The notes under the pieces: model-generated
Told to the model about the DNA's origin: nothing
The model's input: only the letters and a program-made list of their open reading frames with translations
The model's database searches: none
From: a virus
Direction: 5' to 3' (one strand)
DNA: 45,771 nt
IMG/VR virus record: IMGVR_UViG_3300006114_000017
Coordinates: 1-45,771 of that record
In this document: piece by piece, positions 8,255-45,672 of the stretch
Layout: every line of letters begins with the position of its first letter
Position numbering within the stretch: the first letter of the stretch is position 1
Made by a program: the position numbers and the translations under genes

Positions 8255-8317
8255 CTTCAGAACCTTTTCTGTATTAACATATATTTTACATCGTTGTAAC
8301 AATTAAAACTATGTTAA

Positions 8318-8713
8318 TTAGTGATGTAAGTTAATTTCGTCTTCGAGAGCATCAACGAGATTGTGTACTTCTTTGCTTTGTTCTTGCTCGAGTTCAAGGA
8401 TCTCATTGATCTTTACAAGCAATTCTTGGATGGTTGTAAGGCTTTCACGCAATACTTTAGCATCTGCTCGAGTCTGCTCAAACATACTGATACCAACAAC
8501 AGACTCAATGAACAGTGCCATGTAGGAAGCCCATACATTCCACCAGCCAATAACGTTGATGTCAATTGTTCCCCAAGCAGCGCAGAACAAAGTAATAAAC
8601 GTAATTGTCCCAATGAAATACCAATTACGAATAGAAAACTGAATCTTCCAAGAAATATGCTTGCCAAGACCGATGGGGTCGCCCGTAATAGGGTGTCTAA
8701 ATCTCCTGGCCAT
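8318..8713 (-). CDS. Small membrane protein: 2 predicted TM helices plus an acidic C-terminal coiled coil (131 aa)
   Basis: ATG at 8711-8713. Hydrophobic stretches FIGTITFITLFCAAWGTI and VIGWWNVWASYMALFIESVVGI are followed by a heptad-like charged tail. Confidence 0.45.
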   Translation of the reverse strand: MARRFRHPITGDPIGLGKHISWKIQFSIRNWYFIGTITFITLFCAAWGTIDINVIGWWNVWASYMALFIESVVGISMFEQTRADAKVLRESLTTIQELLVKINEILELEQEQSKEVHNLVDALEDEINLHH

Positions 8714-9087
8714 TATTCCTCGTTTTCGTGCGCTGCTCTGAGTCCTTCGTGGTAGCCAAGGTGTCTATCAATAGACTGTGTAAGCTTGTCTACGTGCTGT
8801 TCGATACCCATCAAGTGGTCAACCTTTGTCTCTAGGCGATTCCACTGGTCTTTAGGGCTCGAGCCACCGTTAGTCTTGAACTGGCTGAACAAGCGTTCAA
8901 ACTTCTCGTCTTGATCAATCTTGCTTTCAATGATTGACTTCTCAAGCTCATCCATCTTTTTGTCGCTATGGCGCACAATAAGCTTGTAGATGAAACGTGC
9001 CACAGTTGCAAAACCAGCTGCAGCAAAGAAGAAGTTAGAGATATAGCTAAACCAGGTATTGCTTGAATTAAAAAACGTGCCGAGCAT
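8713..9087 (-). CDS. Small membrane-anchored coiled-coil protein: N-terminal TM, charged helical C-terminus (124 aa)
   Basis: ATG at 9085-9087. ATGA overlap with the downstream gene. N-terminal hydrophobic segment is WFSYISNFFFAAAGFATVARFIY. Confidence 0.45.
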   Translation of the reverse strand: MLGTFFNSSNTWFSYISNFFFAAAGFATVARFIYKLIVRHSDKKMDELEKSIIESKIDQDEKFERLFSQFKTNGGSSPKDQWNRLETKVDHLMGIEQHVDKLTQSIDRHLGYHEGLRAAHENEE

Positions 9088-11715: not shown

Positions 11716-11727
11716 CAATTAGTCTTT

Positions 11728-17164: not shown

Positions 17165-17653
17165 CTACTTGCTAGGCGGATTCGGCGCACCTGTGTTATC
17201 AGCGTCATATTCCTCTGATTTATTAACACGGCTTGCTTCTTCTACAGCAGGCGATTTCTTCATTTTTGTTAAGCCATTTGGCTCTGGGTGAGCAAAATAA
17301 CGCATTTTCGATGCAAAAGCCCAAACATCATCATCTTCTTGAACGCTGGCAGTCATCACAGGCTGTTCAGTGTGTGCAGATAAATTATCTGAGTATGGAC
17401 TACGAAGATCTTTGGTAAGCAAATTCTGCAATGAGAAGTCATAGTTATCTTGCTTAGCACCACCTGAGTTCATCAGGCAATATCCGTGTGAGTACAGTGG
17501 GCGCCTACCATCGACTGCAGTACCGTCCACAAGTACCTTACCCAAACCATCAGTGAATGATGGCATATCACAGAAACGGCAAGGTACTCCTGCAGGAGCG
17601 TCTTTTGGCTCTACGTAGCTTCTTTTACGGTTCATGTTATCCCTCGTCTTCAT
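17165..17653 (-). CDS. Hypothetical protein (162 aa). An alternative start gives MNRKRSYVEPKD..., which matches the recurrent N-terminal motif described in the findings.
   Basis: ATG at 17651-17653. A second in-frame ATG 6 codons later starts right after the upstream gene's stop codon. Confidence 0.45.
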   Translation of the reverse strand: MKTRDNMNRKRSYVEPKDAPAGVPCRFCDMPSFTDGLGKVLVDGTAVDGRRPLYSHGYCLMNSGGAKQDNYDFSLQNLLTKDLRSPYSDNLSAHTEQPVMTASVQEDDDVWAFASKMRYFAHPEPNGLTKMKKSPAVEEASRVNKSEEYDADNTGAPNPPSK

Positions 17654-22493: not shown

Positions 22494-23276
22494 TTAACTT
22501 TCGTCTTCCTCGAGGTCATTAACATCGAACATTCTTTGTACCTTTGCCCCAGGTATATTAACTGTTGGTGTATTAGATGGTTGGTTACTTGGTGGCGTAG
22601 CTTCAGGAACTGTTTGAACCTTACGCTCTCTTCTCTTTGGCGTAGGTGTTTCATCGACTGGTGTCGTTGATTCCTCAGAGTTATAACCCTTAACCTTTGA
22701 CTTCGGCATCTTAATATCATGCTTTGGTGCTTCATCATCGGCAGATAAATAAGTAACACCTGTAGTTACTGTCTGATATGGTGTTGGTGTTGTAACTGGA
22801 GCATCGCTGTCTTGTATACCACGAGTTCTAGAACGTTCTTTGTTCCTAACAACTCGTCTCTTCGTTTCGCTCTTCAAGCTACTTACAGCACGCTCAGTCT
22901 TGTTAATGTTCCTATTTTCAATGCGTTGATCTGTCTTACCAGATTCGCCTGGGTTCAGACCAGATGGACGCTGGTTAGCAACAGCATGTTCCATCTCAAC
23001 GATTTCATTACCAACAAAAAGAGCATGGTTTGCGCATGTGTGAACCTGTGTCACTCCAGATGGAGTGTAAATGAATTCACCATCTTTGTTCTCTGCTACG
23101 CCACCACGCTCGTAGCTCTTAGCACCTTTTGCTCTAGCTTTCAAAGCTTTCCTAGAAGAACGCTGGATGCTATCGCACGGGCCCAGAGAATCATATTTCT
23201 TCGCTTGTTCTGGAGCTAAGCTATCTCTAAGATCAGCTATGCAGCAACGCTTTCCCATATTAACATGCGTATCCAT
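22494..23276 (-). CDS. Hypothetical basic protein (260 aa)
   Basis: ORF track. ATG at 23274-23276. Confidence 0.45.
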   Translation of the reverse strand: MDTHVNMGKRCCIADLRDSLAPEQAKKYDSLGPCDSIQRSSRKALKARAKGAKSYERGGVAENKDGEFIYTPSGVTQVHTCANHALFVGNEIVEMEHAVANQRPSGLNPGESGKTDQRIENRNINKTERAVSSLKSETKRRVVRNKERSRTRGIQDSDAPVTTPTPYQTVTTGVTYLSADDEAPKHDIKMPKSKVKGYNSEESTTPVDETPTPKRRERKVQTVPEATPPSNQPSNTPTVNIPGAKVQRMFDVNDLEEDES

Positions 23277-24505
23277 TATTGATCTCCCTTGCAGCGGTAA
23301 GACTCAGCAATAAATTTGTCAACACGGTCAAATTTATTGCCAGGGTAGCTATCTGGAAATGGAGCGGTTTTGATTTTAGCGATGCCACTCTTGTAATCAT
23401 CACTTTGCTTAATCTTGGAGATGTTTTCTGGTGTTTCAAAGCCTCTTCTTTTTTCACAACCACAAAAGACGTGTGACTCTTGCTTAGTAGGCGTTGAGGG
23501 TGTAGACGCAGGAAGCAATGCTTGCTCTTCTCTTTTTTGCCTTATTTGCTTTATTTCGTCGAAAGTGTCTTTGAAGGCACCTGCGTAACCAGTACCTTCT
23601 TGCTCTCCGCGTCTTACAAGCATCTTATTGATAGATTCAATGTTTTGACGACCCTTCATTGCAAGCACTCGGTCTTGACCCTGCACACCGTGTTCGGGGA
23701 TAGCAATGGTAGTCTTACGTGATGGTTTGCTAGCAGGCACTCTAGAAGTTCCAGAAGACGCGCTTGAGTCATCGTCTTCAAAGTCTTCTAACTCTGGTAC
23801 GTGTTCTTCTGGGGTTTCATCAGTGGGAGCAGACTTTGTCTTATTGAACTTCTTATTGACAGGTGGCAATGCCTGGATAGGAATACCCTTATCTTCTTCC
23901 TGATCACCTTCATGTTCTTCTTCGTGAGAAACATTCTCTGGGATTTCTTCTTCAGCTTCTTCAGCTTCGTGAGGAGATTCTTCTTCTGGGTGTCCAGGAA
24001 GCGTTTCAGGATCGTAAGTGAACTTACCTACTTGTTCTTCTTCAGCTTTCTCTTCATCATTGGGTTCTGTATCAACTTGTTCTGGCTCTTTGTCTTCAGT
24101 TGCATCAGACCATTCTTCCTGCTTGCCTTCGTAGTCATCAGGATCGTAATCGTCGCTAGAAGCGTTGAAAAGCATTTTGAATGTGGCTGTCTTGCCCAAA
24201 GATGGCAATGCAATAATATTTGCTTTTTTCAAGAACTCAATAGATTCAGGAGAATATTTGATCGTGCCAGGCGTTTGGCCCTGCTTATTCAAAATGTCTT
24301 TAAGAGCGTCTTCTTCGCTGGTATAAAGCTTTTTAGGCGTTGAAACTGACGTAGGAGCAGTAGGGTGCTCTGTTCTCTTATATTTTCTAGGCCCTGGTTC
24401 TTTTTGCCCTGATTGTGTGTTATCTTTTCTCAAATACCACTCAGGGTCTCCATTACTAATGGCACCCGTACCCGAAGAGTACTTAGAATTAAATGTTTTA
24501 GCCAT
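23276..24505 (-). CDS. Hypothetical highly acidic protein (409 aa). N-terminus is MAKTFNSKYSSG...
   Basis: ATG at 24503-24505. Glu/Asp-rich central region. Confidence 0.45.
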   Translation of the reverse strand: MAKTFNSKYSSGTGAISNGDPEWYLRKDNTQSGQKEPGPRKYKRTEHPTAPTSVSTPKKLYTSEEDALKDILNKQGQTPGTIKYSPESIEFLKKANIIALPSLGKTATFKMLFNASSDDYDPDDYEGKQEEWSDATEDKEPEQVDTEPNDEEKAEEEQVGKFTYDPETLPGHPEEESPHEAEEAEEEIPENVSHEEEHEGDQEEDKGIPIQALPPVNKKFNKTKSAPTDETPEEHVPELEDFEDDDSSASSGTSRVPASKPSRKTTIAIPEHGVQGQDRVLAMKGRQNIESINKMLVRRGEQEGTGYAGAFKDTFDEIKQIRQKREEQALLPASTPSTPTKQESHVFCGCEKRRGFETPENISKIKQSDDYKSGIAKIKTAPFPDSYPGNKFDRVDKFIAESYRCKGDQ

Positions 24506-25230: not shown

Positions 25231-25314
25231 TGGTCGATGGGGAGAGATTCGAACTCCCGTACCCGAAGGATCTGGTTTACAGCCAGACGCGATTGGCCAC
25301 TCCGCCACCCATCG
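25231..25314 (-). tRNA. tRNA-Tyr (anticodon GTA), type II with a long variable arm. CCA is encoded.
   Basis: Hand-folded cloverleaf: acceptor CGATGGG/CCCATCG, 3-bp D-stem, anticodon stem TCTGG/CCAGA with loop CTGTAAA, long variable arm, T-arm GGGAG-TTCGAAT-CTCTC. Confidence 0.7.
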
Positions 25315-25319
25315 ATTTG

Positions 25320-25390
25320 CTGAGGGAGAAGGACTCGAACCTTCAACAAAAGCTCCAAAGGCTCCCGTGTTGCCATTACACCATCCCTCA
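25320..25390 (-). tRNA. tRNA-Gln (anticodon TTG)
   Basis: Acceptor TGAGGGA/TCCCTCA, anticodon loop CTTTGGA, T-arm GAAGG-TTCGAGT-CCTTC. The anticodon stem has two G-U pairs. Confidence 0.6.
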
Positions 25391-25412
25391 ATGTTTATTG
25401 CATGGCATGCAG

Positions 25413-25499
25413 CGGAATGAGTAGGATTCGAACCTACGGAGGCTTTGATACCTCGCCGGTTTAGCAAACCGGTGCTTTCGACCACTCAGCCATCATTCC
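25413..25499 (-). tRNA. tRNA-Ser (anticodon GCT), type II with a long variable arm
   Basis: Acceptor GGAATGA/TCATTCC, anticodon stem CCGGT/ACCGG with loop TTGCTAA, long variable arm, T-arm GTAGG-TTCGAAT-CCTAC. Confidence 0.65.
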
Positions 25500-25504
25500 T
25501 TATG

Positions 25505-25576
25505 CTCCCAGGGTAGGGATCGAACCTACGACCGAGCGATTAACAGTCGCTTGCTCTGCCGCTGAGCTACCTGGGA
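25505..25576 (-). tRNA. tRNA-Asn (anticodon GTT)
   Basis: Acceptor TCCCAGG/CCTGGGA, D-loop AGCTCAGCGGCAGAGC, anticodon stem AGCGA/TCGCT with loop CTGTTAA, T-arm GTAGG-TTCGATCCC. Confidence 0.7.
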
Positions 25577-29335: not shown

Positions 29336-29901
29336 TAATTGGCCTTTCCAGATAGATTGCAAATTAGAATTTTTTTATCTTCATCGTAATCAAACTCACA
29401 TGCGTTGTCATACTCTTTAATATAGTTAATTAATTTTTGCTTTGTAGTTTCTTCATCACCAAAATCAAGAGCCATACCACTAGAAGAATCACCAAGCAGA
29501 TCAATATCATCAATCAGAATAGTGTGAGCTTTGCGAGGGCGAGCAAAGATTACGTTTAACTCATCCATCAAAGGAACTGCTGGGTGTTCTACATTCGGGT
29601 CACCGCTTGCGCTGTGAGCATCGAGCCAGAAATCTAGCGGGACATCATAAGGCTCAATCATCTCTGATAATTTTTCTTTTGAGTCGCCTAGAAATAACAC
29701 TACTCTGTTGTCATTATCAAACTTGCTACAACAATTATCGTAGAAAGATTTATTGAACTCAACAGTTATAACCTTTTCATAACCAAGACCAAGTGCTATT
29801 TCTACTGTATAGCCATGTTGTGTACCAGTTTCTACAAAGATATTATTTCTCTTATATTTAGAGAACATCAATGTCATTGCTTCTGTGCTTCTATCTGCCA
29901 T
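29335..29901 (-). CDS. Putative class I SAM-dependent methyltransferase (188 aa). Sugar O-methyltransferase is a candidate function.
   Basis: Gly-rich motif-I-like VETGTQHGYTVEIA is followed by an acidic residue at the end of beta-2 (EKVITVEF). No SIS motif is present, so it is not GmhA. Family assignment is tentative. Confidence 0.3.
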   Translation of the reverse strand: MADRSTEAMTLMFSKYKRNNIFVETGTQHGYTVEIALGLGYEKVITVEFNKSFYDNCCSKFDNDNRVVLFLGDSKEKLSEMIEPYDVPLDFWLDAHSASGDPNVEHPAVPLMDELNVIFARPRKAHTILIDDIDLLGDSSSGMALDFGDEETTKQKLINYIKEYDNACEFDYDEDKKILICNLSGKAN

Positions 29902-30911
29902 TATTCCATCTCAATCATTATTCTACCGGCAATGCCGCTTCTAAGTGTATCAAATGCTTCATTTACTTCGTCAAGTTTATATCTGTGAGTAATGAACTCA
30001 TCAATATAAAGCTTCCCAGCCTTCTCGAGCTTAACATAACGCAAGATATCGTTAGAAGGATCTGTCTTGCCACCCTGGGTAGCCTTGATACTAAGACCAT
30101 TACCATTAAAGAAGCTGAGTGCATTGACGATTTCAAGTGACGTTCCTGGCTTGGGTTGACCCACAAGAATCATTCGGCCATTGTTAGATAGATAGCCAAA
30201 GCTCTTCTTAATAACATCGACGTTTCCAGTCGTATCAATAACAACGTCTACTTTACCTTCAAACTCTGTTTCTGAAGTGTTGTAAAAGAAGTCAGCACCA
30301 GCCATGAATGAAAGGTCGCGCTTGCTTTCATTGTTGTCAATAGCAACAATTGGGCTAAGGCTACGCATAGCTGCACCTTGGATGAGGTTAAGCCCTACAC
30401 CACCCGTACCGACAACTGCAACGCTTTCACCAAACTTAAAATCGCACTCATTGTCGATAATACCTAGTGCGGTAGTCAAACTGCATCCAAGGAGCGCAGC
30501 GAGGTCATTAGGGGTCTCTGAAGGGACTGTAGTGAGTCGGTTCTCTGACACGATAGCCCACTGAGCAAGAGTATTTACCTTGCCACTACTAAAAGTCTTG
30601 TCACCAAGGGTGTACTGAGGAAACGCAGCATCGATACCAGTACCTGGTCGCCAGTGCATAACAACCTTGTCACCTACTTTAACAGTGGTTACTCCAGGGC
30701 CAATGTCTTCTACAATGCCACAACCCTCATGACCCATAAGGTGAGGAAGGAACTTGCCATTACCCTTGTTGCCATTGATCTCGTGTAGTTGTGAGCCACA
30801 GATACCGCTGACAAGGACACGAACCTGTACTTGACCCACTTGGAGCTCAGTAAGGCCAACATCTTCAATAGAAAGAGGAGCGTTGAGCTCTTTGAGAACG
30901 GCAGCCTTCAT
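29901..30911 (-). CDS. Zinc-dependent medium-chain alcohol/polyol dehydrogenase (MDR family)
   Basis: GHEGCG catalytic-zinc motif, GxGxxG NAD-binding motif (VVGTGGVGL), and the ~335 aa length typical of threonine/sorbitol dehydrogenase-like MDRs. Confidence 0.65.
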   Translation of the reverse strand: MKAAVLKELNAPLSIEDVGLTELQVGQVQVRVLVSGICGSQLHEINGNKGNGKFLPHLMGHEGCGIVEDIGPGVTTVKVGDKVVMHWRPGTGIDAAFPQYTLGDKTFSSGKVNTLAQWAIVSENRLTTVPSETPNDLAALLGCSLTTALGIIDNECDFKFGESVAVVGTGGVGLNLIQGAAMRSLSPIVAIDNNESKRDLSFMAGADFFYNTSETEFEGKVDVVIDTTGNVDVIKKSFGYLSNNGRMILVGQPKPGTSLEIVNALSFFNGNGLSIKATQGGKTDPSNDILRYVKLEKAGKLYIDEFITHRYKLDEVNEAFDTLRSGIAGRIMIEME

Positions 30912-31759: not shown

Positions 31760-31761
31760 AG

Positions 31762-31835
31762 CGACCTTGATGGGACTCGAACCCACGACCCCCACCGTGA
31801 CAGGGTGGTGCTCTAACCAACTGAGCTACAAGGCC
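31762..31835 (-). tRNA. tRNA-Asp (anticodon GTC)
   Basis: 5'-GGCCTTGTAGCTCAGTTGGTTAGAGCACCACCCTGTCACGGTGGGGGTCGTGGGTTCGAGTCCCATCAAGGTCG. Anticodon stem CCACC/GGTGG with loop CTGTCAC. T-arm GTGGG-TTCGAGT-CCCAT. Confidence 0.7.
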
Positions 31836-35299: not shown

Positions 35300-35566
35300 T
35301 TAGTTAGCTTTGTAAGCTACAAGTGCCAAGTTCTTTAGGCACTCTTCTGGGGTGATCCCATTTACGCTTGATAGTTTATTGATAAACACCATCATAACAC
35401 CAGCAAGTGAGCTGAAGAGTTGGATGGGATCACTCTCGAGGACCATTTCATAAGCTAGTTCCTCTTGGCCGCTGATGATTGCTGTCATCAAAGCGACTAC
35501 GTTGCCAATGTTCTCTGTTACAGAATCCATTATGCCTCGGTAGACGCCTTCAAGAACCAACTCCAC
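35300..35566 (-). CDS. Small hypothetical protein (88 aa)
   Basis: ORF track. Confidence 0.35.
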   Translation of the reverse strand: MELVLEGVYRGIMDSVTENIGNVVALMTAIISGQEELAYEMVLESDPIQLFSSLAGVMMVFINKLSSVNGITPEECLKNLALVAYKAN

Positions 35567-36051
35567 TTTTGGTGTTGATCAATGCGTTCAGCAATGAAGT
35601 TTGCAATACCTTGCTCGTTATCTTTGTCAGCAAGAACAAAGACCTTTTTAATGTGATCAATGTATTCGTTATTCATATCTAAGAATTGCTTAGCAAGATT
35701 ACGTGCATCATCATCGTTAGAACCTACTTCTTTAATTCTACTAAGTCCAGACAATTGGCTCATTACAAAAGGAGCTTTAGCATCAAGCTTTCTGATGTTT
35801 TCTGCAATTGGGTCAATGTTTTCGTAGATATCATCTACGATCTCATCAAAGAACTTGTGATATTGATAGAAGTCATTACCAACAACATTCCAGTGGAAAC
35901 CATGAATAGTGTGATAGAGAACGTATGCTTCAGCAAGCATTCTTTTCAGAGCAGTGACCAAATCACTAACATCTTCTTCATATTCTGGGTTTCTAGTGTC
36001 GTCTTCTACTTCTGTTGCACTGACGACTCTAAAGCCATTCCAATTGTCCAT
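35530..36051 (-). CDS. Dps/ferritin-like protein (DNA-protection-during-starvation family; 173 aa)
   Basis: The ferroxidase-site motif block ...YHTIHGFHWNVVGNDFYQYHKFFDEIVDDI... matches the Dps signature HWNVxGxxFxxLHxxFEE. The length is right for a Dps four-helix bundle. Confidence 0.55.
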   Translation of the reverse strand: MDNWNGFRVVSATEVEDDTRNPEYEEDVSDLVTALKRMLAEAYVLYHTIHGFHWNVVGNDFYQYHKFFDEIVDDIYENIDPIAENIRKLDAKAPFVMSQLSGLSRIKEVGSNDDDARNLAKQFLDMNNEYIDHIKKVFVLADKDNEQGIANFIAERIDQHQKWSWFLKASTEA

Positions 36052-38759: not shown

Positions 38760-39839
38760 TTATTCCCAGCTGGTTGGTTTGTCATTGTTAGTTGAATTGA
38801 AACGATCTTCATTCAACAAATCAATTAATCTATTGCTGCTACCAGTGATTGGTCGAGCTGGCGTTGGGAAGTTAGATATAGTTTGTGGGAAATTAAGCTC
38901 AAGGTTAATTCCTGCTCCAGGACCAGATGACCCTTTTTCTGGCGTTTGCTTTGTAGGCATTGGTTCTTGACCAGTTTCAAGCTTAGTTTTCTGTTGTGGT
39001 GGGTTACTAGTCTCTTGCTCACTCTTAGTAGAAGTTTCTTCTTCAAGAGAAGGTTCTGGCATAGCTTCTGTTTTATCACCAATTGTTTTAGGAGCTGGCT
39101 GCCAAGTTGTGGGAGATGGTTGTGGTGTGCTAGGAGGAGTCTTTGATGGCTTACCAGGAACAGTGAAAGGTGGAACTGTGATTGGCTTAGTAGGAGCCAA
39201 TGGGTGAGTCTCGAGAGGCATGATGCTACCAACTACGGGGTTAGCAGGGCTTGCAAAGCTCTGTCCACCACCAGAATCTGGCGTATTGTTGATATCATTG
39301 CTATTGTCGCCATTTTCATTACCGCTTGAGTTGCTACTAGGCAAGTTCTTCAATGCATCGCTAAGGCCACCACCTTCTGCACCTGCAGCGGCCTCTCCAG
39401 CGCCAGCGACTGCTTCTCCAGCACCAAGAAGCTCTGGGATAGCAAGAAGAGGACCAGCAGTCACAATTGTGCTTGCTGTGACCATGCGAAGTTCCTTAGC
39501 AGCGAACCCCTTACCAGCTTCTGACTGGTAAACTTGGTTATCTGTCAATGCATAAGGAATAACGTTAACAGTTGCGTGCGCTTTGCGCAGCATTTCTGTT
39601 GCAATGCCTTGGTTTCGGTATTCTGGCTCGACGTAAACACCATCCATGATGTAGTTGCCACTAGCTTGCTTTTCAGCAGTGAAATAACCGATTCTTTCGT
39701 CTCCAACCATTGCTTCAACAAGAAGACCAGAGAACGTGCCACCAGTCTTGTATTGCATTGGGCCAACGTTAGCAACAATTCGAACCTTGTCACCTTGTTC
39801 TTCAAGGATCTCATTAAGTCTTGGTGGGATAGTAGCCAT
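38760..39839 (-). CDS. N-terminal GNAT acetyltransferase-like domain fused to a long Pro/Thr/Ser/Gln-rich (mucin-like) low-complexity tail (359 aa)
   Basis: VYVEPEYRNQGIATEMLRKA matches the GNAT acetyl-CoA-binding motif A (Q/RxxGxG/A). The tail reads ...PTKPITVPPFTVPGKPSKTPPSTPQPSPTTWQPAPKT... Confidence 0.4.
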   Translation of the reverse strand: MATIPPRLNEILEEQGDKVRIVANVGPMQYKTGGTFSGLLVEAMVGDERIGYFTAEKQASGNYIMDGVYVEPEYRNQGIATEMLRKAHATVNVIPYALTDNQVYQSEAGKGFAAKELRMVTASTIVTAGPLLAIPELLGAGEAVAGAGEAAAGAEGGGLSDALKNLPSSNSSGNENGDNSNDINNTPDSGGGQSFASPANPVVGSIMPLETHPLAPTKPITVPPFTVPGKPSKTPPSTPQPSPTTWQPAPKTIGDKTEAMPEPSLEEETSTKSEQETSNPPQQKTKLETGQEPMPTKQTPEKGSSGPGAGINLELNFPQTISNFPTPARPITGSSNRLIDLLNEDRFNSTNNDKPTSWE

Positions 39840-40594
39840 TATAGTTTTCCTAGGTCAGTAGTGAGGTCTTCAAGGCGCATATCGCCATATTGACCCTTTT
39901 CAACAATCTCTGGAGTGATGAGAGCCCAGCTCTCTTCCATGTAGCTTTGCAGCCATCTCCACGTTACCTTCTGCACTTTACCCCAGGTAATACATTCAGC
40001 GTAGTCCTTGTCGTAACCTACGAGGATGACACAGTGGCCACCTTCGATCTGATTGTCAGCAGGAGTGCCTGTAAGGTCCCATGGCTGGTTGTCAAGGAAT
40101 TGCTGCTGGAAGGTGACTGGGAGCTTTACACCAATGTATACAAGCCCATATGAGGCAATTACGCTACGGAGCTCATCAAGGTCAGCATGGTCAGTAGGGG
40201 CGAACGCAGCAAGCTTTGTGTTGAACAAGCCGTTGGTCTGCCAGTACTTTAGTAGGTCCGCCTCGACCGCTCCAGCATCTTGTCCATTCGTATAATTGAG
40301 ATAACTTTGCTCGACTTCGGTGTCAGAAGGGAATCCTTCTGTAAGTTGTAAGAAAGCAGCGTTAGCCATTCTGGCGTGAACAATACCAGCAAAAGTACAA
40401 TCCCCATATTTATCATTTCCTAACATTCCCCAATTATCTACGTTTGGCACTGCTACGCTCTCTGGTGCAGCTGGCAACGGGTTGCCCTGATAGAAAGCAA
40501 GCATGTGCAACCCAGCAGGGCGCTTAGGATCTAGCTTACCTAATTTACCAACAATACGATCAGTCATTATTATCTCCCATAAACATCTTTCCAT
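39839..40594 (-). CDS. Papain-like (C1-like) cysteine protease (251 aa)
   Basis: Catalytic Cys context KYGDCTFAGIVHA. The His block GGHCVILVGYDKDYAECITWGKV is strikingly like papain-family D-HAVxxVGYG...I.NSWG. Confidence 0.45.
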   Translation of the reverse strand: MERCLWEIIMTDRIVGKLGKLDPKRPAGLHMLAFYQGNPLPAAPESVAVPNVDNWGMLGNDKYGDCTFAGIVHARMANAAFLQLTEGFPSDTEVEQSYLNYTNGQDAGAVEADLLKYWQTNGLFNTKLAAFAPTDHADLDELRSVIASYGLVYIGVKLPVTFQQQFLDNQPWDLTGTPADNQIEGGHCVILVGYDKDYAECITWGKVQKVTWRWLQSYMEESWALITPEIVEKGQYGDMRLEDLTTDLGKL

Positions 40595-40938
40595 TGACTA
40601 AAAGTCAAACCAGTTTTGCCTGCAAGGAACGAGTGAGTGTTGCAATATGGCCTTGGCACTGAAGAATCAGACCAATGCATGTATTTTGCTTCGTACTTCT
40701 TACCTTGGCAGTCGCCATGAGCACATGCAGCCATACCCTTGCGGTCTACGTAAGGTGCTTTCCTAGTTTTCTTAGGAGGCTCTGGCTGTGGGTTCTCTGC
40801 TAAGTACTTCTGCGTGTTCTCGCAATCGGTAGTGTCTTTGCACCTACCGCTGCTAACGATTGTGTGGGTGCCATCATCTGATGCACCACAGAGCTGACAT
40901 TGGTCAGGACGAGCAGCGTAACGTTCTGACCAAGACAT
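40570..40938 (-). CDS. Small Cys-rich protein (122 aa). N-terminus MSWSERYAAR...
   Basis: ORF track. Motifs CQLCG, CKDTTDC and CAHGDC. Confidence 0.4.
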   Translation of the reverse strand: MSWSERYAARPDQCQLCGASDDGTHTIVSSGRCKDTTDCENTQKYLAENPQPEPPKKTRKAPYVDRKGMAACAHGDCQGKKYEAKYMHWSDSSVPRPYCNTHSFLAGKTGLTFSQWKDVYGR

Positions 40939-41414
40939 TAGAAGTATTTCTGTCGTTCTGACGGAGTCATCTTGCCTGATTTTGCTACAGCAGCATCGTG
41001 GCTCAGCGGTGTTGGGTTGGGGTTATGACGTCCATTGACTATTGTTTCTCCAACTGATCTAAGCAAGCTATAGTGATTGGGAATAACATTTTTGTTGAGA
41101 GCGTCAATCGCTTCATCATGTGTAGCTAGCAGTCTGGGCTCTAAAGCTTCTGGGCCACCAAGCCATGGATCATTGCGTGCACGTGCACTAACATATAAAC
41201 TGATATTGTGACCCTGGGTATAGGCATGCATCATTTCGTCTTCGGTAATACCGTGTCGCCTAGCATCATCAACATGCTTCTTTTGAATAAGCTTGGGGTT
41301 GCCTGAGTTGGCGTGATCAATCAGCTTCTCAAAGTAGTGTGGATCACCATAACCAAAGGTATCTTCAGCTGCGTATCTTCTTTTCCAATTCATTAATCTT
41401 CTCCAAGGATCCAA
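40938..41414 (-). CDS. Hypothetical protein (158 aa). Contains ...MNWKRRYAAED... near its N-terminus.
   Basis: ORF track. ATGA overlap with the downstream gene. Confidence 0.4.
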   Translation of the reverse strand: MDPWRRLMNWKRRYAAEDTFGYGDPHYFEKLIDHANSGNPKLIQKKHVDDARRHGITEDEMMHAYTQGHNISLYVSARARNDPWLGGPEALEPRLLATHDEAIDALNKNVIPNHYSLLRSVGETIVNGRHNPNPTPLSHDAAVAKSGKMTPSERQKYF

Positions 41415-41584
41415 TCGGCTACTTCTTTACTGCGTGAGTGTTCTTGTCCAATAGATGGCCCTTCTTGTCTACTCAGTTCAGAAATAATGTGTTTTTCTGC
41501 TTCAGTAGTGTTAGGGCATTGCAGTTTAGGCCAGCCATGGCATGAACAGCTTTCTGCTGCGTATCTTTTAGACCAATTACTCAT
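41393..41584 (-). CDS. Small Cys protein (63 aa). N-terminus MSNWSKRYAAESCSCH...
   Basis: ORF track. Confidence 0.35.
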   Translation of the reverse strand: MSNWSKRYAAESCSCHGWPKLQCPNTTEAEKHIISELSRQEGPSIGQEHSRSKEVADWILGED

Positions 41585-42003
41585 TTGATGAGTCCTCTCA
41601 CGTATTTTGCTGCCTCAAAGTCACTGTAAGCTGTGACGTGTTTGCCACCATGACCTCTGTGGTGGAAAAGGCATAGCCATTCCAGGTTTGTTGCGCTCTC
41701 TACCCATGCACCAACGGTGTCTGGGTCGCTAACGCCGGGGTAATCGACTTCGAGCCACTTAAGATCGACGCCATTCTGCAATGAGAACTCAATATGAGTG
41801 TGGTGAAGCTCCAAAGGGTGCTCAGAGTCGCACTCACTGAAGTCATTGCGGTGTTCACCGATAGCACATTTAGCTGTTGCCTTCGTTTTCTCACGGAAAT
41901 GGTGAAAATCGACGTAATGTGGGTCATCTTCACGCTCTGGGTGAGGTGGATAGTGAACGGTGTAATGATGAGTGATGTTCTGGTCGTGTTCTTCGACGGT
42001 CAT
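41581..42003 (-). CDS. His-rich protein, possibly HNH/His-Me-finger nuclease-like (140 aa)
   Basis: Pattern C-x10-C ... LELHHTHIEF ... N ... LEWLCLFHHRGH resembles the HNH layout of a Cys pair, catalytic HH, Asn and a CxxH pair. Weak. Confidence 0.3.
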   Translation of the reverse strand: MTVEEHDQNITHHYTVHYPPHPEREDDPHYVDFHHFREKTKATAKCAIGEHRNDFSECDSEHPLELHHTHIEFSLQNGVDLKWLEVDYPGVSDPDTVGAWVESATNLEWLCLFHHRGHGGKHVTAYSDFEAAKYVRGLIK

Positions 42004-42467: not shown

Positions 42468-43583
42468 TTATTCGCCAGAGTAGCTATCATCAGCGTGAAC
42501 AGCTCTATTTATAGCTGTTGAAGGACTGTAAAGGTGAGAAACACCCTCTCCACCTCTCGCACGATGACGTACTCTTGGTGCAACTACAGCTGCATGGTTG
42601 TCTTCGTCCTGTCTAAAGTTGACATGGTGGTTGATAATGGTCTGTTCAGCCTTCGTACCATACAAAACACGGTGGTGTGAACGTCTTCCGACCTTACCAA
42701 ACTCTCCAGCTTCCTTAGAAACGGGGAAACCAGCGAAATAAGCGGCTCTAATCTTGGGATCTTGAGTTCTTTTGGCTGCTTCTTCGTGGTGTTGCATGTC
42801 CCAAAGCTGGTTTGTGGGGTGAGTACTGTCATTTACAACGCAGTATGGGCAGAAACACTTAACAAAACGGGCAGTTTTACCCTGATCGATGACATTTTGC
42901 TCAACAGGATCGATAGCATCGTGCGTATTGCACATGTTATTGATGGTGTGGTTGAATGCGTGGTGCACTGCAAGGTCACCATGGGTGTGATCACTGACAG
43001 TTTTCATGGCATCTCGGTAGAACTTAGGGTCCTTGATGCCATTACGCTTACCCTCGTTGAATGCCATGATCGTTTCAATGTGCGATTGGCCCAAAGCTGA
43101 GAGTGGGTGGACCATCAAACGCTCACCAGTCTTTGCATTCACGTGTTCACCGGCACGGAAAGCACGATCATCCAGGTGGCCCTCTTCGCTGGGAGCAATC
43201 ATCATAGTAGGTTGATGGATACCCTGCTCGAGCTTGTAAGGCTTACCAGTGGTCTTGTTGCGAACAGCAACGGTCATGTAGTCACTTGCGGTTTTAACGT
43301 TGGCAAGCTGCGAGTGAGCGCGACTGTGATACCAGTCGCCCTTTTTGCTTTGCTTCAAGCCAAACAAACGCACTGCGTCAGGATTGGGCTCTTCGCCCTC
43401 ACCAAGGCTACCTATGTAGTGATTAGCGGCTTTCTCAGCAGCATGAGGCACATGATAGTACTCAGGGTCTTCCTTGTGGGTGGCGTAGCCAGTACCCTCT
43501 TGGAAGATAAGCGTCATAGCGTTGGCAGGTCCGCCAGTCTTGAATTGCTTATCGTGTTTTGCAGCTTCTCTGCTGTTGAACAT
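42468..43583 (-). CDS. Hypothetical His-rich protein (371 aa)
   Basis: ATG at 43581-43583. An AGGAG SD lies 8 nt upstream. Confidence 0.45.
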   Translation of the reverse strand: MFNSREAAKHDKQFKTGGPANAMTLIFQEGTGYATHKEDPEYYHVPHAAEKAANHYIGSLGEGEEPNPDAVRLFGLKQSKKGDWYHSRAHSQLANVKTASDYMTVAVRNKTTGKPYKLEQGIHQPTMMIAPSEEGHLDDRAFRAGEHVNAKTGERLMVHPLSALGQSHIETIMAFNEGKRNGIKDPKFYRDAMKTVSDHTHGDLAVHHAFNHTINNMCNTHDAIDPVEQNVIDQGKTARFVKCFCPYCVVNDSTHPTNQLWDMQHHEEAAKRTQDPKIRAAYFAGFPVSKEAGEFGKVGRRSHHRVLYGTKAEQTIINHHVNFRQDEDNHAAVVAPRVRHRARGGEGVSHLYSPSTAINRAVHADDSYSGE

Positions 43584-43689: not shown

Positions 43690-44355
43690 TTAGCAACCAC
43701 CACGGCAAATCCATCCAGTACCGTATTCTTGACTTGGGTCCCAAACAATGTCTTGGGTGTTTCCACAGTTGTAGCAGTAGCGAGAATTGCCTGGGATGTG
43801 CCCATCCATAGGCTTATTTTCCCCCATTGAGTTATCGTTGGCGTAACGCTCAGCGAAAGAAGCACTCTTAGGCTTAAGTGGTGGCACATCGCGAACGTGC
43901 TTGTAGACTTGTGGGTCGTACTTAGTGTCTGGGTCTTGCATCATTTTCACTCTTGAATTAAGAGGAACGTTAGGATTTGTTACTTCTTTGCTAATGTTTG
44001 TCTGAGGAGCCTTGCTCTTTGTGCTTGTCTGCTCTGTGGGGAAATGCTTTTCCATAAGATCACTATAGTGTTCCACAAGGCTCTTTTGGTTAACGCCTGG
44101 TTGTGTGCGCTTCAGTACTTCTTGGTGCATCTCATTAATTTTGCCAACGCCTTGCTGGAACTTCCCAATGCTGTCCATAACGTCATTGTGGTTATTACGG
44201 ACTTCATCAACCATTCTTGCATTAGGGACGTTAGGCTTGTTCTTTTCGTATTCATCACGCGTTTGGTATCTATTCTCAGCGATTCTAATCGCCGCCATTT
44301 TTGCATTGCCAAGTGAGTTCTGGTAGCTCTTTGACCAGTCGTTGAATTGTGCCAT
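43690..44355 (-). CDS. Hypothetical protein (221 aa) with a C-terminal zinc ribbon (CYNCGNT...CRGGC). N-terminus MAQFNDWSKSYQNS. It is the first gene of the minus-strand unit.
   Basis: ORF track. Confidence 0.45.
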   Translation of the reverse strand: MAQFNDWSKSYQNSLGNAKMAAIRIAENRYQTRDEYEKNKPNVPNARMVDEVRNNHNDVMDSIGKFQQGVGKINEMHQEVLKRTQPGVNQKSLVEHYSDLMEKHFPTEQTSTKSKAPQTNISKEVTNPNVPLNSRVKMMQDPDTKYDPQVYKHVRDVPPLKPKSASFAERYANDNSMGENKPMDGHIPGNSRYCYNCGNTQDIVWDPSQEYGTGWICRGGC

Positions 44356-44908
44356 GGTGTAGCCCTTTGTAGATAGTAGAACGATTGCTATCCCCTATAC
44401 CAAGAACTATATGTATTTACATTATTCTCTCTTTTTTTCTATCTACTTTAGTGCACCTAGTATTTCATACGTGGCCAAGGCCTCCGGCATTTTTAATTCT
44501 TACCAGTACGATCTCAACGCCTGCTCTATCGAATACCCCATAGGGCTGCCCGCCATTTTTTAAAGGCGTTTCTATACGCTCCCATTGGGACCCCTATTGG
44601 CGAGCCTTACAGAGCCTTTTAGGCCCCTCTCAAGGCACTCCTCTAAAACCCTTTAGTTCTGGAAATGGCAAAACCTACCATCCTATTTCACGCCTTGGAT
44701 TGCGTGTTAGTTACACGCTAGCAAAAGATTATGAACTTCTTTGCGTCCTTGGGCACAATGTCCAAGTGAGGCTGAGAACTCATGGTCCTAGCAATCACCT
44801 GTATGTTGCTGAACTACAGCACCGTACAGCTGTGTGCGCAAACGTACTACTCAGTAGTGCGCGAACGTACGCAGCAACCCAACACCTATGCATTAGAAAG
44901 AGATTAAA
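44356..44908. promoter_or_regulatory. A 553-bp non-coding strand-switch region carrying short repeats and a dyad element
   Basis: No ORF of 60 aa or more. It separates minus-strand genes (ending at 44355) from plus-strand genes (starting at 44909). It contains CCCATAGGG / CCCATTGGG / CCCCTATTGG motifs and TGCGCAAACGTAC-TACTCAGTAG-TGCGCGAACGTAC. Confidence 0.4.
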
Positions 44909-45176: not shown

Positions 45177-45224
45177 AACTAAACCAGTCCTGAGGAGGAC
45201 ACTATGAAGGAAGTAACAACGATC
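45177..45224 (+). repeat. Copy 1 of an exact 48-bp direct repeat: AACTAAACCAGTCCTGAGGAGGACACT + ATG + AAGGAAGTAACAACGATC. It covers the SD and the first 7 codons.
   Basis: Read directly from the sequence. The second copy is at 45625..45672. Confidence 0.8.
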
Positions 45225-45572
45225 GACGCTGCTAAGGCTTTGGTTGAGCACTACGCTGCTGCGGCTGAGCTCATGACTGCTGAGGCTAAGGCTGAGTACG
45301 AGGCTGCTTTGGCTGCGTACGAGGCTGTTGAGGCTAAGTACGAGGCTAAGCAGGACGCTGCTTGGGCTAAGCGTGACGCTGCTAAGGCTGAGTACTACGC
45401 TGCTCAGGCTGAGTTCAAGGCTGCCGAGGCTGAGTTCGACGATGCTTGGGCTGAGTACCACGCTGCTTTGGCTAAGTACGACGCTGCTTTGTCTAAGCCT
45501 GAGGTCAAGGCTGCTTGGGCTAAGTTCTACGCTGCTATGGCTGAGCTCAACGCTGCTCAGGCTGAGCAGTAA
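45204..45572 (+). CDS. Ala-rich acidic repeat protein (122 aa) with heptad spacing of aromatic residues
   Basis: Strong GAGGAGG SD 7 nt upstream. Extreme codon bias (Ala=GCT, Glu=GAG, Lys=AAG, Tyr=TAC). Repeats of the form AEYEAAL/AAYEAVE/AKYEAKQ. The antisense ORFs listed here are shadows. Confidence 0.55.
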   Translation: MKEVTTIDAAKALVEHYAAAAELMTAEAKAEYEAALAAYEAVEAKYEAKQDAAWAKRDAAKAEYYAAQAEFKAAEAEFDDAWAEYHAALAKYDAALSKPEVKAAWAKFYAAMAELNAAQAEQ

Positions 45573-45624: not shown

Positions 45625-45672
45625 AACTAAACCAGTCCTGAGGAGGACACTATGAAGGAAGTAACAACGATC
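45625..45672 (+). repeat. Copy 2 of the 48-bp direct repeat
   Basis: Read directly from the sequence. Confidence 0.8.

What the first reader, a model, noticed from the sequence alone, without database searches (positions are those of the whole stretch)
40570..41584. Recurrent N-terminal motif M-x(0-5)-[NS]W[SK][KRE]RYAAE shared by several unrelated small proteins, a possible capsid-targeting or propeptide signal
Three consecutive genes start with nearly the same peptide: MSWSERYAARPD (40570..40938), MNWKRRYAAEDT from the internal ATG of 40938..41414, and MSNWSKRYAAES (41393..41584). Related N-termini occur elsewhere: MAQFNDWSKSYQNS (43690..44355), MAKTFNSKYSSG (23276..24505) and MNRKRSYVEPKD (17165..17653, second ATG). 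The proteins differ completely downstream of this peptide, and most are Cys/His-rich. This resembles the T4 internal-protein 'capsid targeting sequence', a conserved N-terminal decapeptide that directs packaging into the prohead and is clipped by the prohead protease after Glu. Here the motif also ends in Glu.
Basis: partly seen in the sequence, partly recalled or inferred. Interest (0 to 1): 0.7.

Follow-up and report, generated by a model that had tools for sequence, protein, structure and literature searches.

The report
Shared N-terminal address tag on phage proteins
Three neighbouring phage genes, and dozens of unrelated genes in related uncultured phages, begin with the same ten-residue peptide, which most likely addresses many different proteins to one common partner, possibly the assembling capsid.

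Summary
Three consecutive minus-strand genes (41584..41393, 41393..40938, 40938..40570) start MSNWSKRYAAE, MNWKRRYAAE and MSWSERYAARPD. W..RYA occurs nowhere else in the six frames.

In related IMG/VR contigs the same peptide heads about 45 unrelated protein families, often in tandem arrays. The consensus is M-x(0-5)-[W/F/Y]-[N/S]-x-[R/K]-Y-[A/S]-x-[E/D].

Synonymous codons vary freely, so selection acts on the peptide, not the DNA. Orthologues keep the tag while the cargo diverges. W and F versions swap within one cargo family.

An F-version heads a conserved 660-800 aa protein at the edge of the virion module (window 20042..17637) and also 24505..23276. Cargo includes a DEDD exonuclease, ParB-like nucleases, HNH, HTH and zinc-ribbon proteins. 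One cargo domain is fused to scaffold or capsid proteins in cultured phages.

Best reading: a lineage-specific docking tag, most likely a T4-CTS-like capsid-targeting propeptide. That function is inferred, not shown. It has no sequence homology to the T4 CTS, and Asp often replaces Glu. Rivals are another docking hub or a protease or leader signal.

No cultured relative or proteome is available. I found no description of the motif in Pfam, PHROGs or the papers searched.

The parts
41552..41584 (-). Tag of g3: MSNWSKRYAAE (W-type tag; the first Cys of the cargo follows 2 residues later)
   Evidence: Orthologues P0006-P0008 keep W, RYA[A/S]E while the residues between Met and W vary (MS, MT, MTTN).
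41393..41584 (-). g3, 63-aa tagged Cys/His-rich small protein (cargo SCSCHGWPKLQCPN...)
   Evidence: An identical protein, P0005, lies on contigs of up to 131,916 bp. No Pfam or PHROG hit.
41364..41393 (-). Tag of g2: MNWKRRYAAE
   Evidence: The start at 41393 is confirmed by the TAATG overlap with the g3 stop, by orthologues P0002 MSNWSRRYAAEDT and P0009 MNWNLRYSMED, and by 151-aa gene calls on other contigs.
40938..41393 (-). g2, 151-aa tagged protein. The cargo holds two copies of a roughly 30-aa 'THDEA...Y..AR' repeat that also occurs up to 10 times in very large proteins.
   Evidence: No Pfam or PHROG hit. The AF2 model has low confidence.
40903..40938 (-). Tag of g1: MSWSERYAARPD (variant without the acidic residue at position +7; Asp two residues later)
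   Evidence: Orthologue P0004 starts MSNWAQRYANRPD. In L008 the tag is internal, fused behind a 55-aa Zn-finger-like module.
40570..40938 (-). g1, 122-aa tagged Cys-rich protein (7 Cys)
41581..42003 (-). Conserved HNH-like 140-aa gene, the upstream border of the variable cassette slot
   Evidence: phrog_8048, weak. It is 65-84% identical in 18 related loci and is always followed by 0-5 tagged genes and then the peptidase.
39839..40567 (-). Conserved papain-like (GDC...GGHC...WG) 242-aa protein, the downstream border of the slot. It is a possible processing enzyme or a lysin; the function is not established.
   Evidence: phrog_19005, 2.7e-29. It is 55-86% identical in 19 loci. Its few cultured-phage homologues include one annotated as cysteine protease next to an amidase.
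44314..44355 (-). Degenerate hybrid tag MAQFNDWSKSYQNS on the 221-aa protein 43690..44355
   Evidence: The counterpart in L069 reads MPTFNDDNWSKSYNNSLG.
42468..43583 (-). 371-aa conserved protein with the partial F-type N-terminus MFNSREAAK
   Evidence: Family members start MFNSKEAAK, MFNSRRAAK, MTKFNSRAAAK and MPSFNSKKQ.
24470..24505 (-). F-type tag MAKTFNSKYSSG on the 409-aa protein 23276..24505
19995..20042 (-). F-type tag MNRPIFNSKTASFPED on the 801-aa protein 17637..20042, at the upstream edge of the virion gene block
   Evidence: In head-module loci the gene at this position (660-790 aa) always starts M-x(2-5)-FN[S/A]KYA-x-[D/E], although the following sequence diverges.

Best explanation
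The peptide [W/F/Y]-[N/S]-x-[R/K]-Y-[A/S]-x-[E/D], placed 1-6 residues after the initiator Met, is a portable protein-level address tag specific to one lineage of large uncultured phages. The head genes of this lineage are distantly related to Bxz1/cluster-C-type actinobacteriophages. The tag is bolted onto many unrelated cargo proteins and lets them all dock to one common partner.

The most likely partner is the interior of the assembling prohead (scaffold or core). The tag would then work like the T4 capsid targeting sequence. Tagged proteins would be loaded into the procapsid, possibly clipped after the acidic residue that marks the tag-cargo boundary, and delivered with the DNA as a fast-evolving set of early-acting effectors (nucleases, DNA-binding and Zn-ribbon proteins).

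Shown:
- the tag exists;
- it is under peptide-level selection;
- it is modular and lineage-specific;
- its cargo turns over in hot spots.

Inferred:
- docking to a single partner;
- the capsid as that partner;
- cleavage and injection.
For: (1) The tag heads about 45 unrelated families. 74 distinct occurrences lie within 5 residues of a Met in ORFs of at least 40 aa, in 1.8 Mb of related loci.

(2) Selection is at the peptide level. Arg is encoded by AGA 33, CGT 21, CGC 7, CGA 6. Tyr is TAC 49 / TAT 20. Ala is GCT 32 / GCA 16 / GCC 8. Upstream DNA is not conserved.

(3) Orthologues keep the tag while the cargo diverges to 32-75% identity, and the aromatic residue swaps among W, F and Y within single cargo families.

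(4) The tag is an add-on to known domains: RNase_T/DEDD exonuclease, ParB-like nuclease, HNH, HTH, cupin and Zn ribbons. The domain starts after the tag.

(5) The cargo starts immediately after the acidic residue. The first Cys ligand lies 8-12 residues after W in 14 of the 60 distinct W-type proteins.

(6) It is absent from 596 Gb of cellular genomes beyond chance level. All multi-tag contigs that can be placed belong to the same phage lineage.

(7) Capsid link: an F-type tag sits on the syntenic 660-800 aa protein bordering the virion block. Tagged genes lie on both sides of TerL. Another tagged gene lies among the genes downstream of the head block, beyond the left end of the window.

(8) The roughly 100-aa domain of one tagged cargo (L013 1109-1660) is, in Vibrio phages, the N-terminus of the 661-aa coiled-coil protein between the head-morphogenesis gene and the MCP gene. 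In Roseobacter phage CRP-821 it is the N-terminus of a 974-aa protein whose residues 690-965 match a solved MCP. That domain is therefore normally carried into procapsids by covalent fusion, and here it carries the tag instead.

(9) Layout parallels the T4 CTS. That signal is 10 residues, with targeting residues at positions 4 and 7 and processing residues at 8 and 10, on diverse internal proteins plus the large Alt protein (PMC9026906, PMC3012670). P1 DarB provides another N-terminal packaging signal (PMC9024508). Packaged ParB-like DNases provide a cargo precedent (PMC5512222).
Against: - There are no proteomic, structural or expression data. Encapsidation and cleavage are pure inference.
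- The acidic position is Asp in about 30% of tags and is missing in about 25%, including window gene g1. In T4, Asp at that position blocks processing.
- The head protease (8257..7595, phrog_18299) has no detectable sequence relation to T4 gp21, so Glu-specific cleavage cannot be assumed.
- The three window genes sit in an early-looking block, far from the head genes.
- Some cargo, such as the DEDD exonuclease annotated 'polymerase exonuclease subunit' and the HTH proteins, would fit a DNA-associated hub equally well.
- Up to 5-6 tagged genes per 3 kb implies an unusually large capsid cargo list.
- AF2 models of g2 and g3 were too poor to say anything about the tag.
Confidence: 0.4

Rival explanations
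1. The tag is a docking motif for a different common partner, not the capsid. Candidates are a phage- or host-encoded DNA-associated hub (a clamp-like ring, the replisome, the nucleoid, RNA polymerase) or a chaperone. It would work like PIP-box or clamp-binding motifs that recruit many unrelated DNA enzymes.
For: The recognisable cargo is dominated by nucleic-acid proteins. These include a DEDD exonuclease (phrog_192 'DNA polymerase exonuclease subunit'), ParB-like nucleases, HNH, HTH and Zn ribbons. The tag keeps working at a variable distance from Met and survives internally in fusions, as short linear docking motifs do. The window genes lie in an early-looking block directly downstream of a divergent intergenic region.
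Against: No clamp or replisome gene of this lineage was available to test. The tag does not resemble known clamp-binding motifs (own knowledge). The syntenic large tagged protein at the virion-module border, the tagged genes around TerL, and the scaffold/MCP-fused homologues of one cargo domain point to the capsid instead.
Confidence: 0.25
2. The tag is a leader or processing signal, or a degron, recognised by a protease. The protease could be the conserved papain-like protein encoded directly downstream of the cassette slot, or a host protease. The signal would release modules from fusions or time the destruction of early proteins.
For: A conserved papain-like gene (40567..39839) borders the variable slot in every relative. 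In-frame fusions carry intact internal tags at each module start (L002 238 aa, P0014, L007/L015), as in polyproteins. An exposed W, F or Y would be a bacterial N-degron residue (own knowledge). A conserved short leader on hypervariable Cys-rich cargo recalls RiPP or bacteriocin leaders (own knowledge).
Against: Most tagged genes are separate ORFs and need no cleavage. Tag arrays also occur far from the peptidase. Cargo reaches 800 aa and includes enzymes. There is no Gly-Gly motif, transporter or modification enzyme. A cultured-phage homologue of the peptidase lies next to a gene annotated as an amidase, which suggests a lysin. The variable Met-to-aromatic spacing does not fit a simple N-degron.
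Confidence: 0.12
3. The peptide acts during translation, as a nascent-chain or early-elongation effect that boosts or couples expression of tightly packed small genes. It would have no role in the finished protein.
For: Tagged genes are often translationally coupled, with TAATG or ATGA overlaps. The motif sits at the very start of the ORFs.
Against: Conservation is of specific aromatic, basic and acidic side chains, with free codon choice. The spacing from Met varies from 0 to 6 residues. W, F and Y are interchangeable. Most genes in the same operons lack the tag. The tag is retained over deep divergence on a 700-800 aa protein.
Confidence: 0.06
4. The similarity has no targeting function. It would be a nucleotide-level repeat, a duplicated gene start or recombination scar, or the last trace of one diverged paralogue family.
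For: The tag-coding 27 nt of g2 and g3 are 81% identical. Module exchange appears to happen at the tag: the same 72-aa upstream module is joined to different cargo in L007 and L015.
Against: Six-fold and four-fold degenerate codons are used freely. Flanking DNA is unrelated. 81% is what identical amino acids alone would give. Cargo belongs to different, unrelated domain families. The tag is maintained by purifying selection in orthologue sets.
Confidence: 0.04

Closest known systems
T4 capsid targeting sequence (CTS) of internal proteins IPI-III and Alt (Mullaney & Black 1996; reviewed in PMC9026906, PMC3012670)
   Same: It is an N-terminal peptide of about 10 residues shared by otherwise unrelated, fast-evolving proteins plus one large protein. 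It has two key aromatic or hydrophobic positions, a small residue at position 8 and an acidic residue at position 10. The cargo genes lie in variable loci of a large myovirus-type genome that has a separate protease and scaffold.
   Different: There is no sequence similarity (MKTYQEFIAE versus MNWNxRYAxE). Position P3 is Ala, not Leu/Ile. Asp is frequent at the last position. The protease is not detectably gp21-like. The cargo repertoire is far larger, at about 45 families or more, and includes enzymes. Function is untested here.
[quoted passage not shown]
   Same: It is an N-terminal signal, with critical residues 6-10, that loads DNA-acting defence-countering proteins into the head for co-injection.
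   Different: According to that paper, the P1 Dar proteins share no consensus N-terminus. Here one consensus is shared by dozens of proteins.
Propeptides of phiKZ/SPN3US-type head and ejection proteins, cleaved at [S/A/G]-x-E (PMC5694885, PMC9026906)
   Same: The 'A-x-E' at the end of the tag matches that cleavage logo. Paralogous ejection proteins there also share conserved N-termini, for example gp53 and gp54 (MANFVKSKLARESVE).
   Different: Those propeptides are mostly longer than 100 residues. They depend on a gp21-like protease, and their cargo sets are conserved rather than cassette-like.
Polyvalent proteins and MuF- or portal-fused effectors (Iyer et al. 2017, PMC5512222)
   Same: The same kinds of effector domains appear there (ParB-like DNases, nucleases, GNAT and peptidases nearby), and they are proposed to be delivered with the DNA at the start of infection. 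Occasional in-frame fusions of tagged modules here resemble small polyvalent proteins.
   Different: There the domains are covalently chained to a head anchor. Here each is a separate small gene carrying a common short tag. No MuF domain was found.
Cargo-loading peptides of encapsulins, and conserved leaders on hypervariable RiPP precursors such as prochlorosins (own knowledge)
   Same: One short conserved peptide lets one machine handle many different cargo or core sequences.
   Different: Encapsulin tags are usually C-terminal and bind an HK97-fold shell in cells, not in phages. RiPP leaders are longer, are coupled to modification enzymes, and act on short peptides.

Membership tests
T4-type capsid targeting sequence (functional class) | Short (10-20 aa) N-terminal peptide shared by proteins that are otherwise unrelated | tested here: met
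   About 45 unrelated cargo families share the 8-10 residue tag.
T4-type capsid targeting sequence (functional class) | Peptide is necessary and sufficient for incorporation of the protein into the prohead | not testable with these tools
   This needs virion proteomics or tag-reporter packaging assays. Only circumstantial links were found.
T4-type capsid targeting sequence (functional class) | Removed by the prohead protease at a consensus site ending in Glu (L/I-x-E for gp21; S/A/G-x-E for phiKZ-type) | tested here: inconclusive
   A-x-[E/D] ends the tag in about 75% of cases, but E makes up only about 46% and D about 30%. Window gene g1 lacks it. Cleavage itself is not testable here.
T4-type capsid targeting sequence (functional class) | Phage has a gp21-family prohead protease and a scaffolding core that receives the tagged proteins | tested here: inconclusive
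   A head maturation protease (phrog_18299) and an acidic, coiled-coil scaffold-like 486-aa protein lie between the portal and MCP genes. There is no Pfam hit and no sequence match to gp21 in the PDB.
T4-type capsid targeting sequence (homology) | Sequence similarity to MKTYQEFIAE-type CTS peptides | tested here: not met
   The consensus MNWNxRYAxE shares only the positional pattern. The T4 sequence is from own knowledge. The role of each position is taken from PMC9026906.
Nucleotide-level repeat / mobile regulatory cassette (duplicated RBS or gene start) | Conservation at the DNA level, including synonymous sites and non-coding flanks | tested here: not met
   Synonymous codons are used freely. 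Upstream regions do not align. The only DNA repeat is the 27-nt tag-coding stretch of g2 and g3 at 81% identity, as expected from identical residues.
RiPP / bacteriocin leader peptide with C39-type peptidase | Leader ending in Gly-Gly (or similar) on short core peptides, with an adjacent transporter or modification enzymes | tested here: not met
   There is no GG motif. Cargo runs from 42 to about 800 aa and includes enzymes. No transporter or modification genes lie in the slot.
Sec/Tat/lipoprotein signal peptide | Hydrophobic core (plus twin-Arg or lipobox) at the N-terminus | tested here: not met
   The tag is polar and charged, and zinc-binding or acidic sequence follows it directly.
Single diverged paralogue family | Detectable common fold or domain downstream of the shared N-terminus | tested here: not met
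   In the alignment of 42 cargo proteins the only invariant or nearly invariant (at least 90%) columns are W, R and Y of the tag, and mean column identity is 9%. Members hit different Pfam and PHROG families.

The most novel reading that the evidence does not exclude
The tag defines, from sequence alone, a complete 'injectome'. In this reading a widespread uncultured phage lineage loads dozens of interchangeable small effectors (nucleases, Zn-ribbon and DNA-binding proteins, one 700-800 aa protein) into its capsid through one portable decapeptide. It swaps them as cassettes between a few genomic slots and tolerates in-frame fusions, because each module carries its own address and cleavage site. 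This would be an unlinked, plug-and-play counterpart of polyvalent proteins and a far larger cargo system than the T4 CTS.
Probability: 0.3. Interest if true: 0.8.

Novelty: new variant of a known kind. Interest (0 to 1): 0.62.

Why it matters
If the tag is an address label, a single regular expression identifies every protein this phage lineage sends to one destination. For uncultured phages that is rare functional leverage.

If the destination is the capsid, three things follow:
- N-terminal capsid-targeting peptides would be shown to have arisen independently of T4.
- They would be shown to support a very large, rapidly exchanged arsenal of co-injected proteins, which are probable anti-defence or host-takeover factors.
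- A new short tag would be available for loading foreign proteins into phage heads.

If the destination is another hub, it would be a new phage-specific short linear motif network. Either way, the roughly 45 cargo families become a prioritised list of unknown proteins for anti-defence or host-takeover screening.

Tried and rejected
- Pfam and PHROG scans of g1, g2 and g3 found nothing.
- DNA searches of the window against cultured phages found no match.
- AF2 models of g2 (pLDDT 48) and g3 (pLDDT 60) were too poor. The tag region has low confidence and no conclusion was drawn. No fold searches were run for that reason.
- PDB sequence searches gave no informative hit for the head protease, the papain-like protein, the 801-aa protein, the tagged scaffold-like domain or the Vibrio coiled-coil protein.
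- Looking for relatives of the 818-aa protein in IMG/VR found none.
- tblastn against cultured phages found nothing for the 801-aa protein, the GNAT N-terminal domain and two small tagged cargos.
- The hits for a DUF2188-like tagged cargo were uninformative hypothetical proteins.
- Pfam scans of the large proteins that carry the g2-type repeat gave nothing useful.
- The tag-pattern scan of 596 Gb of cellular genomes gave only 2 hits, about the chance level. So there is no prophage or host clue.
- The Rfam scan found only the five tRNAs, and the promoter scan was at chance level.
- I considered that MCP (PNGAVA[E/D]|HLAPR), portal (DWSASAE), the 187-aa protein (NIKVA[E/D]LF) and the 251-aa protein (MN[I/F]AEG) carry the same cleavage site. 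I set this aside as too weak. The register differs from the tag, and 'A-[E/D]' near an N-terminus is not statistically unusual.
- The idea that MNRKRSYVEPKD (17653..17165) is a tag variant stays undecided.
Full report
**1. What is in the window**

Almost all genes lie on the minus strand. The window is part of a large phage genome.

- The portal gene (11718..9334) is 39% identical to portals of Bxz1/cluster-C-type Mycobacterium phages and of Gordonia and Rhodococcus phages.
- The gene order is portal, three small genes, head maturation protease (8257..7595, phrog_18299), a 247-aa protein, an acidic 486-aa scaffold-like protein, a cement protein (PF23968), then MCP (4837..3827, phrog_2522).
- There are five tRNAs.
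- No DNA-level relative exists among cultured phages.
- A protein identical to g3 lies on a metagenomic contig of 131,916 bp. The genome is therefore probably about 130 kb or more.

**2. The observation**

The three genes are exactly as described.

- g3, 41584..41393, starts MSNWSKRYAAES.
- g2 begins at the ATG at 41393 with MNWKRRYAAEDT. It has a TAATG stop-start overlap.
- g1, 40938..40570, starts MSWSERYAARPD and again has a TAATG overlap.

W..RYA occurs three times in all six frames, and only at these three starts. Shuffled windows give 0.22 occurrences on average. Other assemblies call the same gene boundaries, at 63, 151 and 122 aa.

**3. Peptide or DNA?**

The evidence favours the peptide.

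- Upstream regions of the three starts do not align.
- The only DNA repeat is the 27-nt tag-coding stretch of g2 and g3, at 81% identity. Identical residues alone would give about that value.
- Codon choice is free across 70 non-redundant tags from related contigs. Arg is AGA 33, CGT 21, CGC 7, CGA 6. Tyr is TAC 49 / TAT 20. Ala is GCT 32 / GCA 16 / GCC 8. Ser uses both TCN and AGY.

**4. Spread of the motif**

I first fetched relatives through the conserved downstream gene. I then scanned IMG/VR with a degenerate DNA pattern for M-N-W-x-x-R-Y-[A/S]-x-[D/E].

- The scan returned 60 loci, many with 2-6 tagged genes in tandem.
- After removing a few chance hits there are about 42 unrelated W-type cargo families. 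In their alignment only W and Y are invariant, and R is nearly so.
- Consensus counts are N at position -1 in 61/69, N or S at +1 in 56/69, R at +3 in 68/69, A or S at +5 in 69/69, and E or D at +7 in 54/69.
- In 1.8 Mb of related loci, 74 distinct W..RY[A/S] occurrences in ORFs of at least 40 aa lie within five residues after a Met. Nine do not, and those follow alternative starts or sit in fusions.
- A stricter pattern hit only twice in 596 Gb of bacterial and archaeal genomes, which is about the chance expectation.
- Contigs with tag arrays also carry this lineage's head module. The tag is therefore specific to the phage lineage.

**5. An F/Y version of the same tag**

Many proteins start M-x(0-5)-F-N-[S/A]-[K/R]-Y-A-x-[D/E]. 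Three observations show it is the same tag.

- MNFNERYAKEK proteins bridge the two forms.
- One cargo family has MNWNTRYSSDKPWDEKDPD in one genome and MDFNTRYAKEKEFWDKEDPD in another.
- Two DEDD exonucleases that are 32% identical start MFNAKYANSEE and MYNSRYANQ.

So does the 801-aa protein 20042..17637 (MNRPIFNSKTASFPED). In head-module loci the gene at that same position, just upstream of the virion block, is 660-790 aa. It always starts M-x(2-5)-FN[S/A]KYA-x-[D/E], although the sequence after the tag diverges strongly.

MAQFNDWSKSY (44355..43690) is a hybrid form and is conserved in a relative as MPTFNDDNWSKSY. MNRKRSYVEPKD (17653..17165) is conserved within its own family, but I cannot say that it is a tag.

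**6. Behaviour of the tag in evolution**

Orthologues of all three window genes keep it.

- g3: MSWNLRYASEK, MTWSQRYAAEM, MTTNWNKRYAAEN.
- g1: MSNWAQRYANRPD.
- g2: MSNWSRRYAAEDT, MNWNLRYSMED.

The number of residues between Met and the aromatic residue varies, so the exact N-terminus is not what is read.

Cargo turns over in slots. The interval between a conserved HNH-like gene (42003..41581, 65-84% identical among relatives) and a conserved papain-like gene (40567..39839, 55-86% identical) holds 0 to 5 tagged genes in different relatives. The same cargo (…ICGCGDPAVGKDAYGNP…) sits in different slots in two relatives.

In-frame fusions also occur. One 238-aa protein has a second, intact internal tag. 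In another case the same 72-aa upstream module is joined through the tag to different cargos. A g1 orthologue is fused behind a Zn-finger-like module with a decayed tag. A 483-aa protein carries g2-type repeats and then an internal tag followed by a Cys-rich (KCSC…) segment. The tag therefore marks the start of a module.

**7. What the cargo is**

Most cargo is unknown. Recognisable examples are listed below.

- An RNase_T/DEDD exonuclease (PF00929, 2.9e-13; phrog_192).
- Three ParB-like nuclease proteins.
- HNH and HTH proteins.
- Cupins.
- A DnaJ-type CXXCXGXG finger.
- Several zinc ribbons.

In each case the domain begins after the tag. In 14 of the 60 distinct W-type proteins the first Cys lies 8-12 residues after W, so the acidic residue marks the tag-cargo boundary. 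The pI values are unremarkable, with a median of 6.7.

The g2 cargo holds two copies of a roughly 30-aa 'THDEA…Y..AR' repeat. That repeat occurs up to ten times in proteins of 1,200-5,400 aa.

**8. Links to the capsid**

- (a) The large F-tagged protein is syntenic with the virion block.
- (b) In three contigs the order is exonuclease (tag), 93 aa (tag), 94 aa, 57 aa (tag), 185 aa (tag), 81 aa (tag), large terminase (phrog_2), 137 aa (tag), 108 aa (tag).
- (c) A tagged 127-aa gene lies among the genes downstream of the head block, beyond the left end of the window.
- (d) The roughly 100-aa domain of the tagged 185-aa protein has homologues in cultured phages.
  - In Vibrio phages it is the extreme N-terminus of a 661-aa 'coil containing protein' between the head-morphogenesis gene and the MCP gene.
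  - In Roseobacter phage CRP-821 it is the N-terminus of a 974-aa protein whose residues 690-965 match a solved major capsid protein.
  - Those phages carry the domain into the procapsid by covalent fusion. Here it stands alone, and the tag plus a short Lys/Glu/Gly linker has been added in front.
- (e) Published precedents.
  - The T4 CTS is 10 residues. Targeting depends on residues 4 and 7, and processing on residues 8 and 10. Asp at position 10 blocks processing but not targeting. T-even internal proteins are diverse defence-countering proteins that share only the CTS (PMC9026906, PMC3012670).
  - P1 DarB has an N-terminal packaging signal (PMC9024508).
  - P1 DdrB, a ParB-like DNase, is packaged. 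Solo GNATs of cluster-C mycobacteriophages have been proposed to be capsid-deployed (PMC5512222). A GNAT gene (39839..38760) follows the papain-like gene here.

**9. What argues against the capsid reading, or remains open**

- Nothing shows packaging or cleavage.
- Asp is common at the last tag position, and about a quarter of tags, including g1, lack an acidic residue there.
- The head protease has no Pfam hit and no sequence match to T4 gp21.
- The window's three genes sit in an early-looking block.
- The nucleic-acid bias of the cargo fits a DNA-associated hub as well.
- The papain-like neighbour could be a processing enzyme, but it could also be a lysin.
- Structure prediction did not help.
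- Possible short propeptides on MCP, portal and two other virion-block proteins are only suggestive.

**10. Verdict**

It is a lineage-specific, peptide-level, portable N-terminal tag on about 45 unrelated cargo families.

That it docks all of them to one partner is a strong inference. That the partner is the prohead, in a CTS-like way, is the best-supported specific model, at about 0.4. A different hub stands at about 0.25, and a protease, leader or degron signal at about 0.12. Translation-level and DNA-level explanations are unlikely.

It is not a homologue of the T4 CTS. At most it is an independent analogue, so I class it as a new variant of a known kind. I found no description of this motif in Pfam, PHROGs or the papers searched.

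Noticed in passing
window 38760..39839 (-); L002 10729..11694; L007 7563..8420: The GNAT-domain protein after the papain-like gene has a long Pro/Ser/Thr-rich tail and ends in ...TSWE. Its counterparts in relatives end in ...TTTWE and ...GTTWE, including one with no obvious GNAT sequence (not scanned). This looks like a conserved C-terminal T[T/S]WE motif, possibly a second address signal.
   Followed up: no
window 8713..9087 (-) and orthologues in L073-L135: The 124-aa protein between the portal and protease genes has a strongly conserved N-terminus ML[A/G][S/T]FFN[S/T]SNxW[F/S]xY followed by a hydrophobic segment. It contains both FNS and N-W...Y elements of the tag, but it lacks the Arg.
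   Followed up: partly
window 3827..4837 (-) and orthologues: MCP orthologues are 95-100% identical, yet their first 11 or so residues vary (MSITPNGAVAE, MSSLTPNGAIAD, MSNNYAD) before an invariant HLAPRTAKK. An E/D alternation sits at the junction. This may be a short cleaved propeptide.
   Followed up: partly
window 40938..41393 (-); P0010-P0017: The g2 cargo is built from a roughly 30-aa repeat (G.THDEA[M/I].A...G..L..Y..AR). A profile search finds the repeat up to 10 times in proteins of 1,223-5,421 aa of unknown function. No Pfam family covers it.
   Followed up: partly
P0001 (ENA, 2.6-kb contig) versus window 40938..41393: A 97%-identical variant of g2 has a different first 13 residues (MNSQSIIYWRCNR...) and no tag. 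It could be a frameshifted or truncated allele or an assembly error.
   Followed up: no
window 45187..45200 and 45635..45648 (-); ORF 45204..45572 (+): Identical hairpins (GTCCTCCTCAGGAC followed by TGGTTTAGTT) flank a plus-strand ORF. That ORF encodes an Ala/Glu/Tyr-rich repetitive protein (AEAKAEYEAALAAYEA...), and a similar gene is present in L069 5918..6220. It lies across a divergent intergenic region (44356..44908) from the tagged genes.
   Followed up: no
window 35530..36051 (-): This is a ferritin/Dps-like gene (PF00210, 7e-20), conserved in all relatives. It is unusual cargo for a phage.
   Followed up: no
window 25231..25576 and 31761..31835 (-): There is a cluster of four tRNAs (Tyr, Gln, Ser, Asn) plus a separate tRNA-Asp. 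A block of genes lies between them, and the counterpart of one in relatives (29901..30911) is a zinc-type alcohol dehydrogenase (ADH_N/ADH_zinc_N).
   Followed up: no
L013 1109..1660; L143 3977..5962; L144 3492..6416: A roughly 100-aa domain (FKP...G.T.VG..RA...KRM.S.FSRH.VDK...AW..WGGDAG..W) has no Pfam family. It occurs as the N-terminus of scaffold-position proteins or MCP fusions in Vibrio, Roseobacter, Halorubrum and other phages, and as a stand-alone tagged protein here.
   Followed up: partly
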